In this document: in pieces, positions 123-12,158 of the stretch
Layout of the letters: each line of letters opens with the position of its first letter
How positions within the stretch are numbered: the first letter of the stretch is position 1
From: the human T2T-CHM13v2.0 reference genome, Homo sapiens
Strand: one strand, 5' to 3'
Assembly: GCF_009914755.1 (NCBI RefSeq)
Contig: NC_060934.1
DNA length: 64,000 nt
The notes under the pieces: generated by a model
The model's database searches: none
Seen by the model: the letters and a program-made list of their open reading frames with translations, nothing else
Told to the model about the DNA's origin: nothing
Position numbers and translations under genes: made by a program

Positions 123-191
123 CTGTAGTGTTCTTTCTAAACCCTGTATATTCAGGCGAAAGCCACTTTTCTGCTGGTTAGATGCAAGGTT
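123..191 (-). CDS. EPC1: EPC1 exon 12 (69 nt, symmetric phase 0, likely cassette), NLASNQQKSGFRLNIQGLERTLQ
   Basis: Acceptor tgtcatag|AACCTT and donor CTACAG|gtgagt; 23 codons, matching the recalled difference between 836- and 813-aa EPC1 isoforms. Confidence 0.9.
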
Positions 192-390: not shown

Positions 391-1030
391 CTGAACATAA
401 AATAAAGAAACACTTTATAAAAATGCCCAGCTGTCATGTATGTCTTACAGTACTAAAACAAAAATTCTGCATTAAATCTGTGCAAAATTGAAGCATCTGA
501 CAAAGGATCATGATCCTGCTAAAGATCACTTCCAAATGAAAATTTCTGCGTTTCTGCTACCACATTTAACAAGAGTGGCATGAATTTAAAGAAAAAAAAA
601 ATTAAACTTCCTGAATTAAACACAGGAAAGAGAACTGCTCACTTCCCAAATTTCAACACCACTATTTTTTTTTTAAGCTGTGACACTTGTTCTACACAGT
701 GTAGAAAGATAATATCAGCTTTTAAAATCCATAGATTTGGAATTCAGCTTTGCACTGAGCTTGAGAGAATATCTGATAATTACATTTGGTTTCTATTTAA
801 TCCATATCTTCCCAAGGCATTCAGATGATCCCTAATGGCTCTGTGTATATATACTAATAGTTCTACATATTTTCTAATTGTAGTCATTAAAAAAATTTGC
901 TCTATATGAAAGATTACAGTTGTTGGTTGGTTTATTGCTTTTTTTTAAAGAACTCATCCTTTAAGTTTAACAGGAAGAAAAGAGGCTCTAATGTTAAGGT
1001 TAATTAATTTTCCCCACCCAATTAACCCAC

Positions 1031-1147
1031 CTGGAAAAAATCCAGTCAATAAGAACGGAGTTGTTTATGTTGATTTACTGTACAGAATGATGTCTGAGGA
1101 AAGACACTGTGTTATGCTACTTATGTTTGTCTATGGAGAGCTCAGTT
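1031..1147 (-). other. EPC1: Candidate poison (PTC) cassette exon in EPC1 intron 10, 117 nt
   Basis: Acceptor tttttttgtttgttttttttag|AACTGAG and donor TTCCAG|gtgggt; reading from exon 10 gives G|AA CTG AGC TCT CCA TAG (ELSSP*). Confidence 0.7.
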
Positions 1148-2460
1148 CTAAAAAAAACAAACAAAAAAATGTTCATTTATTACCCCCCCAAAAAAGTGTG
1201 TGCAGTTTTTAAAAAGGAAACCTTTTTCTCTTTTTTGCCAATTAAAAAAAAAAAAAGCACATACAATCACAATACCTCTGATTTTAAAGGCGTCTTTAAG
1301 AAGCCTGTGATGTTTGAGTAAGAATTATTTTAAAACAAAAAAAGGTTTATCATGCATCCCTGGCTACCAGGGAATCTATAAATCATGCACATTTCCTCAA
1401 TCTAAAGTTTAATGTTTTCAAAATACTGTCACCTAATTTGTTGTTTAACTTCAGTTTGATAATTTAGTTAGAATATCACTTCAAGTTTTATACTTTTCAC
1501 TTATATAACTCATGAAGAATCTTTCTTTATCCTCCAGGATATACTTTCTGCCTGGTACAACTAGAAAATTAGGTTAGGTACAAATTCTGCCATGTTTTGA
1601 ATGGATCAGAAAATTGTGAAATAATATTCAAGAAAACCTAATAAGTTATTAGTATCTACACAGGTTCTTATACTTGAGTTGAACTAAGTTCTTGGGCTAT
1701 AAGGGCAAAAAATGTTGGAAATTGGTTTTCTTATTTTCTGTGTGTGTTAAAATCTGTTTAGTTGATATCTTCCCTTTGATGAGCTCCTTTTCCTACTATG
1801 TTCGTAATTCACAAATCTGCAATCTATAGAAAAGATTTTTATTGATAATAGAATGCTCCCTAAATATTGACATAAAAATAACTGTCAACATGATCATTTC
1901 CATATAAACAGAAATGTGTTATACCAAAACTTGAAGAAAATCTAAAAAAGTCAATGCTGCCCTCAAATAATTTCATAGTTAATATTTCTCATGTTTAAAA
2001 AAAATCCACGAAAATTATTTAAATGTAAGAATCCTTGACTCACTAGATACTTTTGCCAATATATTTGTGAGATTTACAGTTTAATTTCCTAAGTTTGAGT
2101 GTGTTGCCTAAGCCTTGGCTTTTCTAGTAGGGAATGCTCAGTAAATTTAAAAGCAAACAAACCATTTTTGGAAGGTCAGGTCATCACATATATAGAAAAA
2201 CAATAATTTAGCATTCACTGAATGTCTATGTATTAAAGTCCATATATATGAAAGAAAGTATTCTTTTGTAGAACTTTGCTGGCGTGTGTGTTTAATTAAA
2301 CATTTATCAATAGCTAATTAGAAATCAATGTGAATAAAGTCCAAATATTTTTGCCTTATTTAACATCTTAATCCTGAGTCTTTGAAGATCTTGTGAATTT
2401 CACTTCTTAACAACTGTTAACTTCTTCCTAATACAGACTTGGAAATAAAAATGCAATCAA

Positions 2461-3064
<604 letters not shown>

Positions 3065-3336
3065 TCAACATTTTAGATTACTATGTTAGCCTATTTGTTA
3101 GATATTGCTGTCTTCTACAGAGTCTAGTTATGAAATTTTTCCTGGACACTTTTGGCAAATAGTCTAGGAGAAATGCACAGAGCAACCCTTAAGCTGTAAG
3201 TGGTGGTAATAATAACTATGGTCTAGGGGCCAAAAGACCTTGACATTCTTAGTCCTCAGCTCTATCATAATTAGCTGAGTATTCCTGAGAAAGTAAATCT
3301 TTTGGGACTCTGTCTTCATCTAAAATGAGAAAGACA

Positions 3337-3661
<325 letters not shown>

Positions 3662-4675
3662 TTAGGTGATCATTAAGGTCCTCTTCAGCTATGAGATGCT
3701 AAGGTTTTATATTCTTCTGAGAAATAAAGTTCAATTCCTAAAGAAGGTCCCAGTGTGAATGAGTAGAAAAACCTGTACCAAGGTAGTAAATATGGGCAAA
3801 AGAAATCTGAACCTCAGGTCATGATACCATTATAACCTGAAAGTCTAACCAAATGCTAAATGGAAATAAGACAAAAATGACCATGCTCACCCTCTCTAAA
3901 TGTCTATGAATGGATTGAGATATCAAGGTAGAACATTTTTAGGTTGTATGTCTACCTCCTGATATGGTATGAGAATCAAGTTTGTAATTCCCACAAAGGT
4001 GGACAAGATGGTTGTTGTTGACAGATGACCAAACCTACAGTCAGAATCCTTTCACAAAACCAAAAAATTTTGAGGTCAGGAAGGACTCTTAGAGATTGTA
4101 GGATTTCTTCCTACAACCTCATCTAGAGATGAAGAAACTTCTGAGGTCACACATATGTAACAGTGGAAGGAAAAGAGAACCCCAAAGCAATGAGATTTTA
4201 AATTGAAAAATAGACAAAAATTCTTGGATTTAATATTTACAAGAAATCTATCTTCTGAGGTACCAACAATATGAATCAAGTGCTTAAAAAGCCCACACAC
4301 ATAGAGCACCTGACAAACAAGGGTCTACGCAAGGAGAATCCTATGTGTGGGACAGGATTAAAAGCTCCAAATATTTAACCAGGAACGGGATTAGGAAAGG
4401 AAGCATGATAGGACTTCAACTGGGTGAAGGCCATTATGATGCTGAAGGGGGAGCAAACTCACTCGGTATGCTTCCATGAGCAAACCAGGGACTTGCAGGT
4501 TTTAATTTAAGAAGGCAGTTTTTGGTTCAATACATAGACAAACTTTCTAACCAAGATCCTCAAACAACTCAATCTAGAAAGTTGTTGAATTTAGCTTCAC
4601 TAGAAATACTTAGGCAGAAGTAGAAACTACCTTTGTTTTGGTAGCTTCTAAGTAACCAATTTTCTTGGGCAGAAA

Positions 4676-4977
4676 TTTTTTTTTTGAGACAGGGTCTCAC
4701 TCTGTTGCCTAAGCTGGAGTGCAGTGGTGTGATCTGGGCTCACTGCAGCCTTGACCTCCTTGGGCTCAACTGATCCTCCCACCTCAGCCTCCCAAGTAGC
4801 TCTAGCTCGGACTACAGGCGAGCATCACTATGCCTGGCTAATTTTTGTATTTTTTTGTAGAGATGGGTGTTTCACCATGTTGCTCAGGCTGGTCTTGAAC
4901 TCCTTAGGCTCAAGCAATCCACCTGCTTTGGCCTCCCAAAGTGCTGGGATTACAGACATGAGCCACTGCGCCCGGCC
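4676..4977 (-). mobile_element. AluJ
   Basis: gggctcaa/cactgcagcc J-type diagnostics. Confidence 0.85.
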
Positions 4978-5196
4978 TAAGACTCTCTGAGTCCATTTGT
5001 ACTAAAGGGAAGCCATGGTATGGTACACCAGCAGCTGGAACAGCCTATAGTTCAGACTGCTGCTCTGTGCACTGCACTCTTATAGCTAAAGGTGATCAAC
5101 TGAGATGATCAAAGGAGTGCAGCTGAGGGGAAAGTGATGGGTGCTAAGGAAACATTCAGCCGTGAAAGATGGAGTTTAGATTACCAAAATGTACAC

Positions 5197-5725
<529 letters not shown>

Positions 5726-6175
5726 TACTTTGTTTTTAATAACAAAACCAAAAGTAACCCCAAATGCCTAAAGACCCTGAATTAGAAATTTCTTTTAGTA
5801 CACAGGCCAAACATTATTTTAATATAAAACAAAAGGTAAAATGATTCTTCAGGTAGTTATTAAAGTATGATCTCCTAATTAGTGAGATTGAGTTGACAGG
5901 GTTCACGAGCCTTATCAGCCATCTAGAAATCTAATTTGAAAACCAAAGTTTGTTTTAATTCATTTGTTGGCAAACTATGACCAGACCTGACCTCATCTGG
6001 CCGTGAATGACTGAACATGAGATTATTTGCAGTCAAATATTCCTCTTAGTGTGAATATTCTTGCATTTTATTATATGACTATAGAACTATTAATGTATTT
6101 TACTACAGGTGCTACTCCAGACTCTGCTACAGATGTTATATAATAATCCACCTTCTATAGTAAAAAAAATTCTGA

Positions 6176-6479
6176 GGCTGGGCGCAGTGGCTCATGCCTG
6201 TAATCCCAGCGTTTTGGGAGGCTGAGGCAGGCGGATCACAAGGTCAGGAGTTCGAGACTGCCTGGCCAATATGGTGAAACCCCGTCTCTACTAAAAAATA
6301 CAAAAATTAGCCAGGCGTGGTGGCACGCACCTGTAGTCCCAGCTACTCGGGAGGCTGAGGTGGGAGAATCGCTGAACCCGGTAGGCGGAGGTTGCAGTGA
6401 GCCAAGATCGTGCTACTGCACTCCAGCCTGGGCGACAGAGTGAGACTCTGTCTTAAAAAAAAAAAAAAAAGAAAAAAAA
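6176..6479 (+). mobile_element. AluS
   Basis: Full dimer with poly-A tail. Confidence 0.9.
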
Positions 6480-7299
6480 CTTATGAATTTTGGAACACAT
6501 TTGAATAAAGTCAAGGTCCTGCAAATTCACAAAATCTTACAAAATATTCAGTGCTCAAATCTAGAGCTCCTTTTCCACAGTAGGATTAAGATGTTATGTT
6601 GCAAACTAAATTGCACTAAGTTACGGATATTAAGACTTGGAACATATCATTCTAACCATATATCTCTTATTCGTTTATAAAAATAAACCAAATCTTTACT
6701 GCAGATATGAGAGCTTAGAAAAATAATTCAGAATGCTGGTGAAATTTTACTGGAAATTAGGAATTCACATATTGAACATAGAATTGTAGCTTAAAAATCA
6801 CTTTGTTTCCAGTCTTTCTGAATTATATAAGGACTCTTACATAAGAGTCCTTATGCAAATGCATAGTCAGTCACTGAACACTCAACTTCCCAAGGTGCTT
6901 TTGTGAGTATTAAAAAAACAACTGTATTTGGAAACTGTCCAAAATCACCTATTAACTGAAGATTATTAAAAATATACAATTTATCCTTAAGTACTAAAAC
7001 CTAGCCCCCAAAATTCCATATACACATACGGTCTTTCCCAGTTCCTTACCACTGTGTTATCCTGCTGCATGGTATCCAGAGGACCAAGCACTCAACACAC
7101 CTAACTCACACAATACTCAGGTATTAGGAAGCCTGATACCAGACTGCTCAGGCTACACAAATATGCAAAATAGTCAAGAGTGGGAAGGAAAGTAAAAAAG
7201 ATTCTGAGTAGTTGAAAGAGACTATAAAATCAGCATATTAAAGCTCATGCACTTTACTAAAATGTACTTCTATTATCTTCATTTAGAATTTCCTATTTA

Positions 7300-7849
<550 letters not shown>

Positions 7850-7979
7850 CATGACAAACATAAAAACAATGAATAATCAGAAATGGCTATACTATAACTC
7901 GCATATTTGGCTTAAGTAGCAGGAAAGCTTATCAGCTGACTTGTATTTTACAAAATAGTTAACTTCCAAACTCATAAAC

Positions 7980-8450
<471 letters not shown>

Positions 8451-8775
8451 TGACTCTTCTGTTTTAATAAGCCCAACACTGCCAGTTTTTCTGCTGGCAT
8501 CAGACTACATCAGAGTTTCTTTGGTTAAGTGCCAGAGGAAGTAGTCTGGTTTGTATGTGGGGGCCATGCTGTATGAAAATTAAAAATTATCTTTAAAATC
8601 ACAATTACTACTGAATGAGGTAAGATGCTTAACCTATGAATAAAGTGGCAATGCGGGCACTCACGCCGTAAGAGGACCAACACATTCAACTTCCCCTACT
8701 CCAGGCTCACTCTGGAGAATATATTCTTTCAGTAAATTGTATTTAGAATTCTGTATAACATTTGAGCTGCTACAT

Positions 8776-9079
8776 TTTCTCTTTTTTTTTTTTTGAGATG
8801 GAGTCTCACTCTGTCGCCCAGGCTGGAATGCAATGGCACAATCTCGGCTCACTGCAACCTCTGACTCCCAGGTTCAAGCCATTCTCCCTGCCTCAGCTTC
8901 CTGAGTAGCTGGGATTACAGGCGCCTGCCATCATGCCCAGCTAATTTTTGTATTTTTTAGTAGAGACCAGGTTTCGCCATATTAGCCAGGCTAGTGTGGA
9001 ACTCCTGACCTCAGGTGATCTGCCCGCCTCGGCCTCCCAAAGTACTGGGATTACAGGCATGAGCCACCACACTTGGCCT
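8776..9079 (-). mobile_element. AluS
   Basis: Antisense Alu dimer. Confidence 0.9.
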
Positions 9080-9355
9080 AAATTTTGTTTTTTTTTTCTT
9101 CAGGGGCCTGGAGTTGGATTAAGTGAAATGCACTTATGATATGGCTGCATTGTAATATACTTTATAAAGTATGCAGAGAAAAGCTTTAGGTCTCTGGAAT
9201 ATTCACAAATATAAATGAACAGTGTTACCCTACAGTAGTCTGTAGGTATCTATCCTCTAAGTATTAGAAGATCTAGCAAAATTTAAGGAGAAATTGAAAA
9301 TAATTAAGACAACAGGAAAAAAAATAGATAAACTCATTTTTAAAAAGTAGTATTG

Positions 9356-9642
9356 AGGCTGGGTGCAGTGGCTCACCCCTGTAACCCTAGCACTTTGGGA
9401 GGCCAAGGCAGGAGGATCACTTGAGGCCAGGAGTTCAAGACTAGCCTGGGCAACATAGACCCTATCTCTTACAAAAAATTAGCCAGTCATGGTGGCATAC
9501 GCCTGCAGTCCTAGCTACCCAGGAGGCTGAGGTTGGGGGATCACTGAGCCTGGGAAGTTGAGGCTGCAGTGAGCCATGACTGTGCCACTATACTCCAGTC
9601 TGGGTGACAGAGAAAGATCCTGTCTTAAATAAATAAATAAAT
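9356..9642 (+). mobile_element. AluJ
   Basis: gcctgggcaacatag and gaggctgcagtgagccatga J-type diagnostics; (TAAA)n tail. Confidence 0.85.
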
Positions 9643-10233
9643 AGTTGTATCGCATATATGGAGGAAAGAAATGATAAAGAAGAAAAATTACAAGGTTACT
9701 AATGATTTCTTTTCAGCTAAGCTTTTGGTAATGCTCATCTTTTAATGTTCTTTGGGCAAACACAAATCAAACAATTTTTACAACTGTTATTAATATGCCT
9801 AAAGCAGTATAGCAAAACATTTTTCATAAAAAAAGAGCATTATAAAATCCTTAAATATTTAGGATAGTTATACACTTCAACTTCTCTATTTAAGGGGTGG
9901 AGAAGATGGAGATTGATGGAACATGCCTATTTTCTGAGAAGTCTTAAAGAATTTTTACAGCTTAGAAAGCTTAATTATCAGGGTAACCTATGACAGGTTT
10001 ATACTGTTAAAACCTCTATACTAACACTCTATGTAAGTCTTTATTGAAAAGTTCTTTATTTTGATTCTTAAGACTATAAAAGTAGAGAGAAACTGGCTTT
10101 TGGTGATAAAGACAGTAACATTAATGGGATTATAAATAAGCTGTTAGTCCCTAAAATAGCTTTATCTTCCAGCTGATTTCTGAATTGTGATTATTTTTCT
10201 CATGAGCTGAAAGACTTCCATTTCATAGAAGTA

Positions 10234-10966
<733 letters not shown>

Positions 10967-11246
10967 TACTTTTTTTTAACCACCAAGTAAATTAGTTTAC
11001 GGAACATTTTCTGGAGGTCTTTAAGAATCAGAGCAAATGTTCATATTTATGAAGCAACTTAACTATAACCCTACAGGGTGAATTAGGGGAATGATAAATA
11101 TCTTCATAGTCCTCAGATTACCTTTACAAAAATCAGTAGTAACATAATTCAATGGTGAATTTCTACAATATATAGGCTTCAAATAACACAAACTTATGCT
11201 TTAAAACAGACAGCTAAGATTATAGGAATATTTTAAATAAACAGCA

Positions 11247-11252
11247 TTTATT
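11247..11252 (-). promoter_or_regulatory. Candidate intronic polyadenylation signal AATAAA in intron 10
   Basis: Plus-strand tttatt; U/GU-rich sequence follows on the minus strand (tgctgtttattt...ctgtctgtttt); about 440 nt after the read-through stop at 11693. Confidence 0.4.
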
Positions 11253-11805
11253 TTAGACACATTTCAAATAGAAGCCACAATAATCAAATAGATATTATCT
11301 GAAAACGTTTCAAAAATATTAACCCTTTAAATGTTCTTCTCTGAAAAATTAGTTTATCTTTAACAAATTATTCTGAATTATTGTGTCAACATATAAGGTT
11401 ATGCATATATATTCACTTGCTGGTCTCTATGTTAAAGCAAACTAGGTAAAAACTAGAGAAATATCTGAACATAAAATGGTTAACAATTTACGGCCCATTT
11501 TCTTCTCATATTATTGAAAAATATGATAAATCTTGTGGTTCACGGACTATATCCAGGAAACAAATGTCACATATTAAATAGAAATAAACCATCTTTGTAT
11601 GCAGGTATGTTTAAATGAAGACACACACATACAAACTCCTATAGCAACAGGATTCAAATAAATACTTAGACCAAGATTTTTTTTTTAACTGTTTAAGAGA
11701 AAAGGACTTTAAGCCATAAATGTAACAGACCACATAGTCGAACAAATGGGAAATGGTTGGACCTGACATTTCTATAGAAACGTACATCATTAACAGTCAA
11801 CATAC

Positions 11806-12158
11806 CAAAGTGTGCTGAACCACTGCTACTTTTACTTTGCGTAGAGGTACTGCATGTCTGGGTCCCAGGTTGTGCTGTTCCTGTTCGGTTTATACTCCTA
11901 TATAATTTTCTACAGGAGAGTTCATCATTGTCACTGTCATGTAGGGATGGTGTCCGAGGCCTAAAATGCCGCCATCTACATGATTTGATATTGACTAGTA
12001 TCTGACTGAGGTCTTTAGAGAAAGATTTGTCCGAGGTATTTGTTTCTGAGGTATTGGCAAACTGATTGACTGGAGAATGTTGTGGTGAGGAAAGCATTTC
12101 CAAATCCAGATGGTGAAACACACTGTCATAGTCTGAATGAGCTCTGTCCAGTAAGACC
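11806..12158 (-). CDS. EPC1: EPC1 exon 10 (353 nt), VLLDRAHSDYDSVFHHLDLEMLSS...WRHFRPRTPS...SSSGSAHF
   Basis: Acceptor tttaatag|GGTCTT and donor CACTTTG|gtatgt; overlaps ORF 11693..12121; ends in phase 1. Confidence 0.95.

What the first reader, a model, noticed from the sequence alone, without database searches (positions are those of the whole stretch)
1031..1147. Candidate NMD-triggering poison exon in EPC1 intron 10
Seen: on the minus strand, a near-ideal U-rich acceptor (tttttttgtttgttttttttag at 1148-1169) and a strong donor (CAG|gtgggt at 1029-1030) bracket 117 nt in a repeat-free part of an otherwise Alu-packed intron. Exon 10 ends in phase 1, so inclusion reads G|AA CTG AGC TCT CCA TAG. 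The stop lies 100 nt upstream of the next junction. Known: stops more than 50-55 nt upstream of a junction trigger NMD, and chromatin and splicing regulators often carry conserved poison exons. I recall an EPC1 poison exon being reported in CRISPR exon-skipping screens but cannot confirm it is this one. Inference: this is a splicing-based dosage control for the NuA4/TIP60 scaffold.
Basis: partly seen in the sequence, partly recalled or inferred. Interest (0 to 1): 0.8.

Follow-up and report, generated by a model that had tools for sequence, protein, structure and literature searches.

The report
Known stop-codon cassette exon in EPC1
This is a real, already annotated alternative exon of the human chromatin gene EPC1 that puts an early stop codon into the message, so it is an ordinary, already catalogued poison exon rather than a new discovery.

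Summary
On the minus strand, window 1031-1147 is a 117-nt exon with a T-rich acceptor and a CAG|gtgggt donor. Spliced after exon 10 (phase 1) it reads E-L-S-S-P-stop, with the TAG 100 nt before the next junction.

It is not new. The hub's RefSeq table lists 1031-1147 as an exon of other EPC1 transcripts. Two papers' supplementary tables carry the same exon, matched here by exon and intron lengths. PMC11169469 shows hnRNPL represses it in 4 human and 2 mouse datasets: inclusion about 5-17% rises to 17-32%. PMC13078869 flags it NMD_in; cycloheximide raises inclusion by 0.074, FDR 1.1e-4.

Sequence alone is not significant: about 0.9 equally strong site pairs are expected per 64 kb, and 2 are seen.

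Decay looks modest. Total Epc1 mRNA is unchanged when inclusion triples.

The main rival is a truncated protein, EPC1(1-581) plus 5 residues. It would lack the whole E_Pc_C domain and the MBTD1-binding site.

The parts
1031..1147 (-). 117-nt alternative cassette exon (poison exon) of EPC1, between exon 10 and exon 11 of NM_001272004.3
   Evidence: Sequence. The hub's RefSeq table lists it as an exon of other transcripts. Same exon by lengths and spacing as hg38 chr10:32273921-32274038 in PMC11169469 and PMC13078869.
1148..1169 (-). 3' splice site: polypyrimidine tract (18 T of 20, 2 G) plus AG, with no AG in the last 12 nt of the tract
   Evidence: Pyrimidine count 18 of 20, equalled by 1 of the 10 exons of the selected transcript; the range among those exons is 11-18.
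1025..1030 (-). 5' splice site gtgggt. With the exon's last CAG it matches 8 of 9 positions of CAGGTRAGT.
   Evidence: The 10 exons of the selected transcript match 6-8 of 9.
1131..1133 (-). In-frame TAG, codon 6 of the included read, 100 nt upstream of the exon's 3' junction
1065..1067 (-). Second in-frame stop (TAA), codon 28 of the included read
1196..1202 (-). CACACAC in the upstream intron, 49-55 nt before the acceptor. Candidate hnRNPL binding site (inferred).
   Evidence: PMC11169469 reports that every one of its conserved events carries a CA-rich motif. The exon itself holds 14 CA dinucleotides against 7.7 expected, which puts it in the top 3.1% of 117-nt windows.
1012..1028 (-). Three G-runs (GGG, GGG, GGGG) just downstream of the donor. 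Possible intronic splicing enhancer; the assignment is recalled knowledge and was not tested.
   Evidence: sequence only.
11806..12158 (-). Upstream constitutive exon (exon 10). It ends in phase 1, and its last full codon is residue 581 of the 836-aa isoform.
   Evidence: The 836-aa length comes from PMC9296003.
272..390 (-). Downstream constitutive exon (exon 11), which holds the first 43 positions of Pfam E_Pc_C (PF06752)
11229..11805 (-). Read-through extension of exon 10, used as an alternative last exon (hub table 11229-12158). It adds 37 residues, then a stop, and has AATAAA about 20 nt before its end. This is a second route to a protein cut at the same boundary.
   Evidence: and the hub table.

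Best explanation
Window 1031-1147 (minus strand) is a genuine, annotated alternative cassette exon of EPC1. It is normally kept at low inclusion, at least partly through repression by hnRNPL. The likely binding sites are the CA-rich exon and the CACACAC about 50 nt upstream of the acceptor (inferred).

When the exon is included, the reading frame hits TAG after five codons. That stop lies 100 nt before the next junction, and four junctions follow it in NM_001272004.3. The message is therefore unproductive for full-length EPC1 and is a substrate for exon-junction-dependent nonsense-mediated decay. The net effect is that more inclusion gives less full-length EPC1 mRNA.

Shown: the exon, its stop codon, its use in human and mouse, its response to hnRNPL loss and its response to cycloheximide.

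Inferred: that decay is by NMD proper, that hnRNPL acts directly, and that the cell uses this to set EPC1 dosage.
For: Anatomy and frame:
- Searches give the exon, its splice sites and the stops.
- Four downstream junctions: the cassette exon to exon 11, then three more coding exons below the window.
- The hub's RefSeq table lists 1031-1147 as an exon.

hnRNPL response (PMC11169469 Dataset EV5):
- The event appears in 6 of the paper's 9 datasets.
- Mean inclusion, control to hnRNPL-depleted (means): HEK293T 0.052 to 0.173; HepG2 0.047 to 0.234; K562 0.079 to 0.180; keratinocytes 0.090 to 0.204; mouse activated B cells 0.097 to 0.320; mouse fetal liver 0.167 to 0.285.
- The mouse event is a 111-nt exon in the same intron. 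The authors paired it with the human event at 70% identity or more for all three exons.

NMD evidence (PMC13078869 Table S4a):
- Flag NMD_in; NMD score 0.395 against a threshold of 0.1313; pLI 1.
- Cycloheximide versus DMSO: change in inclusion +0.0735, P 2.2e-6, FDR 1.1e-4.

Productive output: productive Epc1 mRNA falls to about 0.69 of control in hnRNPL-deficient B cells by my arithmetic on the paper's numbers.

Splice sites: they are as strong as or stronger than those of the 10 exons of the selected transcript in the window.
Against: - Decay looks weak. Control inclusion of 5-17% at steady state is high for an efficiently degraded isoform.
- In mouse B cells inclusion triples while total Epc1 mRNA does not change significantly: log2FC -0.118, 95% interval -0.41 to 0.17. 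A simple steady-state model fits a relative decay rate near 1.4 and disfavours rates of 3 or more, unless transcription compensates.
- The authors of PMC11169469 tested NMD only for SIRT1. [quoted passage not shown]
- Cycloheximide is not specific to NMD. The shift of 0.074 is below that paper's own 0.1 cut-off for a splicing change.
- EPC1 occurs nowhere in the held supplementary files of three NMD-factor studies: PMC9108619 (0 of 10 files), PMC12988323 (0 of 1) and PMC7470949 (0 of 1).
- Epc1 is absent from the mouse Upf1-knockdown and mouse-brain tables of PMC13078869. That paper's column Cons.mouse.NMD reads 0 for this exon.
- Whether the mouse exon carries a stop could not be checked.
Confidence: 0.65

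Rival explanations
1. The exon is an isoform switch rather than a decay trigger. A useful share of the inclusion mRNA escapes NMD and is translated into EPC1(1-581) plus ELSSP (586 aa). This scaffold still assembles TIP60 but lacks the whole E_Pc_C domain and the MBTD1-binding segment. Loss of hnRNPL would then shift cells toward MBTD1-free TIP60.
For: - The cut falls exactly at a domain boundary. Pfam E_Pc_C begins at profile position 1-2 in the very next exon and runs through the last three coding exons.
- 255 codons follow exon 10 in the 836-aa isoform, so the last full residue is 581.
- PMC9296003 (passages read) expressed EPC1(1-581). It purified all NuA4/TIP60 subunits except MBTD1, which binds residues 644-672. 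It had HAT activity, gave more than 20,000 ChIP peaks and activated a reporter.
- A second annotated transcript ends the protein at the same boundary by intronic polyadenylation (11229-12158), which would be immune to NMD.
- Steady-state inclusion is high, and total mRNA is unchanged on hnRNPL loss.
Against: - No protein evidence was seen for a 586-aa EPC1.
- The stop meets the 50-nt rule with four downstream junctions.
- Cycloheximide raises inclusion significantly.
- EPC1(1-581) is a laboratory construct taken from a tumour fusion, not a demonstrated natural isoform.
Confidence: 0.2
2. The exon is a tolerated by-product with no selected function. Strong splice-like sites arose in the intron, hnRNPL merely suppresses them as it does many pseudo-exons, and NMD clears what leaks through.
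For: - Pairs of sites this strong are expected by chance about 0.9 times per 64 kb. A second, unused pair sits in an Alu at 6331-6451.
- The paralog EPC2 has no similar sequence in its orthologous intron (C2:149221760-149232064) and 0 strong pairs there.
- No unusual RNA structure: z = +0.56.
- No paper found discusses a function for it.
Against: - The exon is used in both human and mouse, in the same intron, at a similar distance from exon 11 (640 nt versus 558 nt). Its sequence identity is 70% or more, and the hnRNPL response has the same sign in all 6 datasets that list the event.
- It is listed among splicing events that change during human brain development and among brain regions.
- It lies in unique, repeat-free sequence.
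Confidence: 0.15

Closest known systems
hnRNPL-repressed poison exon of SIRT1 (PMC11169469)
   Same: It is in the same dataset and the same class of event. It is an internal cassette exon that brings a premature stop, is conserved between human and mouse, and gains inclusion when hnRNPL is lost.
   Different: For SIRT1 the authors showed lower total mRNA and a shorter half-life of the inclusion isoform. For EPC1 neither was measured, and total mRNA is unchanged in B cells.
Conserved or ultraconserved poison exons of splicing factors and chromatin regulators (Thomas et al. 2020; Yan et al. 2015). Both are recalled; neither paper is held, and only their titles were seen in a reference list.
   Same: A cassette exon with an in-frame stop more than 50 nt before a junction, sitting in a dosage-sensitive nuclear regulator (pLI 1).
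   Different: Ultraconservation and autoregulation are not shown here. The known regulator is hnRNPL, not EPC1 itself. Identity with mouse is known only to be at least 70%.
EPC1(1-581) and the EPC1-PHF1 sarcoma fusion (PMC9296003)
   Same: The protein encoded by the inclusion mRNA would end at the same residue, 581, which is the end of exon 10.
   Different: Those are a laboratory truncation and a tumour fusion made by chromosome breakage. Here the truncation would come from normal alternative splicing and would add five residues. No protein has been shown.

Membership tests
Poison exon (alternative splicing coupled to NMD, cassette type) | Cassette exon that is actually spliced in, with both junctions supported by reads | tested here: met
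   rMATS inclusion and skipping counts in 6 datasets. Listed in PMC13078869 Tables S4a and S5a. Listed as an exon in the hub's RefSeq table.
Poison exon (alternative splicing coupled to NMD, cassette type) | Inclusion introduces an in-frame premature stop codon | tested here: met
   TAG at codon 6 and TAA at codon 28 of the included read. Stops occur in all three frames of the exon.
Poison exon (alternative splicing coupled to NMD, cassette type) | The stop lies more than 50-55 nt upstream of the last exon-exon junction | tested here: met
   100 nt to the exon's own 3' junction, and three further junctions downstream.
Poison exon (alternative splicing coupled to NMD, cassette type) | The inclusion isoform accumulates when NMD is blocked | tested here: inconclusive
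   Cycloheximide raises inclusion by 0.0735, FDR 1.1e-4, in iPSC-derived neurons. But cycloheximide is not specific to NMD. EPC1 is absent from the held supplements of three NMD-factor studies and from the mouse Upf1-knockdown table.
Poison exon (alternative splicing coupled to NMD, cassette type) | Host-gene mRNA falls as inclusion rises | tested here: inconclusive
   In mouse B cells inclusion goes from 0.097 to 0.320 while total Epc1 log2FC is -0.118 (interval -0.41 to 0.17, padj 0.68). One dataset only.
Conserved or ultraconserved poison exon | Exon, splice sites and stop conserved across mammals or vertebrates | not testable with these tools
   Only indirect evidence. A 111-nt mouse exon in the same intron was paired by the authors at 70% identity or more. 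No mouse or other vertebrate sequence is available here. The paralog EPC2 has no counterpart.
hnRNPL-repressed exon | Inclusion rises on hnRNPL depletion, and CA-rich elements lie in or near the exon | tested here: met
   Same direction in all 6 datasets that list the event, out of the paper's 9. CACACAC at 1196-1202. The exon's CA dinucleotide count is in the top 3.1% of 117-nt windows. The canonical heptamers ACACACA and ACACAAA are absent from 731-1447. Direct binding was not tested.

The most novel reading that the evidence does not exclude
The exon is a physiological switch of TIP60 composition. Under low hnRNPL activity, or at particular stages of brain development, a share of EPC1 is made as a 586-residue scaffold ending at residue 581 plus ELSSP. 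That scaffold builds an active TIP60 acetyltransferase complex without the H4K20me reader MBTD1. The annotated intronic-polyadenylation isoform that ends at the same boundary would do the same.
Probability: 0.15. Interest if true: 0.55.

Novelty: already known. Interest (0 to 1): 0.25.

Why it matters
EPC1 is the scaffold that ties the TIP60 acetyltransferase module to the rest of the complex, and it is intolerant of loss-of-function variants (pLI 1). A regulated stop-codon exon is therefore a plausible handle on its dosage and, in principle, a target for splice-switching oligonucleotides.

The exon is already annotated and already sits in two published tables, so the finding adds no new element. 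Two things are still open. One is how efficiently the inclusion isoform is degraded. The other is whether a truncated, MBTD1-less EPC1 protein is made.

Tried and rejected
Tried without result:

- RNA gene or structured element. There is no Rfam match in 391-2432, and the fold of 981-1220 is no better than shuffles, z = +0.56. Rejected.
- Plus-strand gene. Only chance ORFs of 73 aa or fewer, and no notable repeats. Rejected.
- Repeat-derived exon. The stretch is single copy in its own genome and shows no Alu signal. Rejected.
- Paralogous poison exon in EPC2. blastn of window 701-1500 against 30 kb of EPC2 gave only T-run matches inside the orthologous intron. The same crude splice-site scan gave 0 strong pairs there. 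Not found.
- Literature. 'EPC1' with 'poison exon' gave 0 papers. The other EPC1 searches returned 16, 11, 7, 3, 6 and 9 papers. I opened passages in six of these. Only PMC11169469 concerns EPC1 splicing. Three hits were the 'EPC10' patch-clamp amplifier. One cited EPC1 only in its reference list. One listed EPC1 isoform counts only. The rest I judged from titles alone.
- The supplements of PMC11169469 and PMC13078869 are partly cut or unreadable here. One xlsx and two PDFs of the latter could not be read, and these may hold more on this exon.

Full report
**1. Observation**

- A tract of 18 T and 2 G ends in AG at 1169-1148.
- The exon runs 1147-1031 (117 nt).
- The donor is CAG|gtgggt, with GT at 1030-1029.

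The frame also checks out.
- The upstream exon 11806-12158 ends with the first base of a split codon.
- The downstream exon 272-390 supplies the other two bases.
- With the 117-nt exon spliced in, the read is E-L-S-S-P-stop. In-frame stops fall at codons 6 (TAG, 1133-1131) and 28 (TAA, 1067-1065).
- The TAG ends at exon base 17, so 100 nt remain before the junction.

The label 'exon 10 / intron 10' fits NM_001272004.3. Ten of its 14 exons lie in the window. Three further coding exons lie just below the window start, found by Pfam E_Pc_C matches and read at the sequence level. One exon is therefore left above the window.

The surroundings are as described. Alu-like hits fill 2462-10715 of the intron, but none lies in 391-2432. 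The stretch 950-1400 has one match in its own genome.

**2. Is it more than chance?**

On sequence alone, no.

By crude measures the sites are as good as or better than those of the 10 exons of the selected transcript in the window.

| Measure | This exon | The 10 exons of the selected transcript |
|---|---|---|
| Pyrimidines in the 20 nt before the AG | 18 | 11-18 |
| Donor match to CAGGTRAGT (of 9) | 8 | 6-8 |

At that stringency, however, the sense strand of the window holds 22 acceptors and 10 donors. About 0.9 pairs at 40-300 nt are expected, and 2 are seen. The second pair (6331-6451) sits in an antisense Alu and is not in the hub's exon table. A stop codon in a 39-codon non-coding exon is also the default outcome. 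The case rests on transcript evidence.

**3. Transcript evidence**

The hub's RefSeq table lists 1031-1147 among 'exons of other transcripts' of EPC1.

Two papers' supplementary tables carry an event with hg38 coordinates chr10:32273921-32274038. It is flanked by 32273162-32273281 and 32284697-32285050. The three exon lengths (117, 119, 353) equal those in the window. The two intron lengths are 640 and 10659 in hg38, against 640 and 10658 in the window. It is the same exon.

*PMC11169469 (EMBO Rep 2024).* I read sections 15 and 34, the figure legends and supplement file 5 part 3. The event is listed in 6 of the paper's 9 hnRNPL-depletion datasets (means).

| Dataset | Control inclusion | hnRNPL-depleted |
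|---|---|---|
| HEK293T | 0.052 | 0.173 |
| HepG2 | 0.047 | 0.234 |
| K562 | 0.079 | 0.180 |
| Keratinocytes | 0.090 | 0.204 |
| Mouse activated B cells | 0.097 | 0.320 |
| Mouse fetal liver | 0.167 | 0.285 |

The mouse event is a 111-nt exon in the same intron, 558 nt from exon 11 against 640 nt in human. The authors paired it with the human event at 70% identity or more for all three exons. The main text names EPC1 only in a list of genes with conserved events.

*PMC13078869 (JCI 2026).* I read sections 7, 11 and 12 and passages of the supplements. Table S4a covers exons that change during human brain development. Its row for this exon reads as follows.

| Column | Value |
|---|---|
| EANMD.flag | NMD_in |
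| UCSC_Cassette | 1 |
| Cons.mouse.NMD | 0 |
| NMD score (threshold 0.1313) | 0.395 |
| pLI | 1 |
| Change in inclusion, cycloheximide vs DMSO, iPSC-derived neurons | +0.0735 |
| P value | 2.2e-6 |
| FDR | 1.1e-4 |
| Gene-level log2FC | +1.86 |

Other genes in the same table show gene-level shifts of similar size, so the +1.86 is not specific to EPC1. The exon is also in Table S5a, which covers differences among GTEx brain regions.

**4. Mechanism**

The exon is rich in CA dinucleotides: 14 against 7.7 expected, in the top 3.1% of 117-nt windows. A CACACAC sits 49-55 nt upstream of the acceptor at 1196-1202. The canonical heptamers ACACACA and ACACAAA are absent from 731-1447.

This fits direct repression by hnRNPL, which binds CA-rich RNA. 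Binding itself was not tested.

Three G-runs follow the donor (1012-1028). They may act as an intronic enhancer; that role is recalled, not tested.

Inclusion puts a stop 100 nt before the next junction, with four junctions downstream in all, so the 50-55-nt rule is met.

My best reading is an hnRNPL-gated unproductive isoform that is subject to NMD and lowers the output of full-length EPC1.

**5. How strong is the decay?**

The evidence is mixed.
- Control inclusion of 5-17% is high for an efficiently degraded isoform.
- In hnRNPL-deficient mouse B cells inclusion triples, yet total Epc1 mRNA changes by log2FC -0.118 (SE 0.149, padj 0.68).
- A simple steady-state model puts the inclusion isoform's relative decay rate near 1.4. 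A rate of 3 predicts -0.46 and a rate of 4 predicts -0.60, both outside the 95% interval of -0.41 to 0.17, unless transcription compensates.
- Productive mRNA still falls to about 0.69 of control.
- The authors tested NMD only for SIRT1. [quoted passage not shown]
- EPC1 does not occur in the held supplements of three NMD-factor studies: 0 of 10, 0 of 1 and 0 of 1 files.
- Epc1 does not occur in the mouse Upf1-knockdown or mouse-brain tables of PMC13078869.
- The cycloheximide shift is significant but small, and the drug is not specific to NMD.

**6. The rival that deserves attention**

The stop falls exactly at a domain boundary.
- Pfam E_Pc_C (PF06752) starts at profile position 1-2 in exon 11 and continues through the last three coding exons.
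- 255 codons follow exon 10's last full codon when the optional 69-nt exon is present. In the 836-aa protein that last full residue is therefore 581 (the length is from PMC9296003).
- The inclusion mRNA would thus encode EPC1(1-581) plus five residues.

PMC9296003 (passages read) expressed EPC1(1-581), the part retained in the EPC1-PHF1 sarcoma fusion.
- It purified every NuA4/TIP60 subunit except MBTD1, which binds residues 644-672.
- It had acetyltransferase activity.
- It gave more than 20,000 ChIP peaks.
- It activated a reporter.

PMC11330486 (passages read) places the contacts with EP400, DMAP1 and actin in the EPc-B domain, from residue 399 on. The truncated form would keep that region.

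A second annotated transcript reads through the exon 10 donor. It adds 37 residues and ends after an AATAAA at about 11250. That is an NMD-immune route to the same cut.

No protein evidence for either natural truncation was seen.

**7. Other checks**

- No RNA family and no unusual fold.
- Nothing on the plus strand and no repeats.
- The paralog EPC2 has no similar sequence and no strong site pair in its orthologous 10.3-kb intron. The exon is therefore not an evident shared feature of the two paralogs.

**8. Literature and novelty**

'EPC1' with 'poison exon' returned 0 papers. Six further EPC1 searches surfaced only PMC11169469 as relevant. PMC13078869 was found through a general NMD search and a search of its supplements.

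The searches cover main texts only.

The exon is annotated, it is catalogued as NMD_in, and it has a known upstream regulator. As an element it is already known. No dedicated functional study was found.

**9. Verdict**

- The poison-exon interpretation is supported, with modest and incompletely specific evidence for decay.
- The dosage-control role is inferred.
- Interest is low to moderate. The one reading with some novelty is a natural, MBTD1-less EPC1 scaffold, to which I give about 15%.

Noticed in passing
window 6331-6451 (-): A second acceptor-donor pair as strong as the finding's (121 nt). It lies inside an Alu that is antisense to the gene (Alu-like hits 6177-6456 on the + strand) and is not in the hub's exon table. 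It is a candidate for Alu exonisation, and a reminder that such pairs arise by chance.
   Followed up: partly
window 11229-12158 (-): An annotated alternative last exon reads through the exon 10 donor. It adds 37 residues, then a stop, and has AATAAA about 20 nt before its end. This intronic-polyadenylation isoform truncates EPC1 at the same residue as the cassette exon does.
   Followed up: partly
window 11806 (exon 10 / intron 10 boundary): The end of exon 10 is residue 581 of the 836-aa isoform, the same end point as the EPC1 part of the EPC1-PHF1 sarcoma fusion studied in PMC9296003. By inference, those translocations break within the intron that holds the cassette exon.
   Followed up: partly
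window 123-191 (-): The optional 69-nt exon (23 codons, phase 0-0) accounts for the difference between 255 and 232 C-terminal residues. PMC13078869 Table S5a lists it as ORF_preserving, with a cycloheximide shift in inclusion of -0.038 (not significant).
   Followed up: partly
window 872-898 (-) versus L005:6924-6950 (EPC2, C2:149238323-149238349): A 27-nt match at 89% identity (E 4.7e-4 in a 30-kb search). It joins the EPC1 intron downstream of the cassette exon to a place in EPC2 that lies beyond the equivalent of exon 11. The two positions are not orthologous. Probably chance.
   Followed up: no
window 1183-1189 (-): A run of seven G, about 36-42 nt upstream of the acceptor, between the CACACAC and the T tract. 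Together with the G-runs after the donor, the exon is bracketed by G-runs. Meaning not tested.
   Followed up: no
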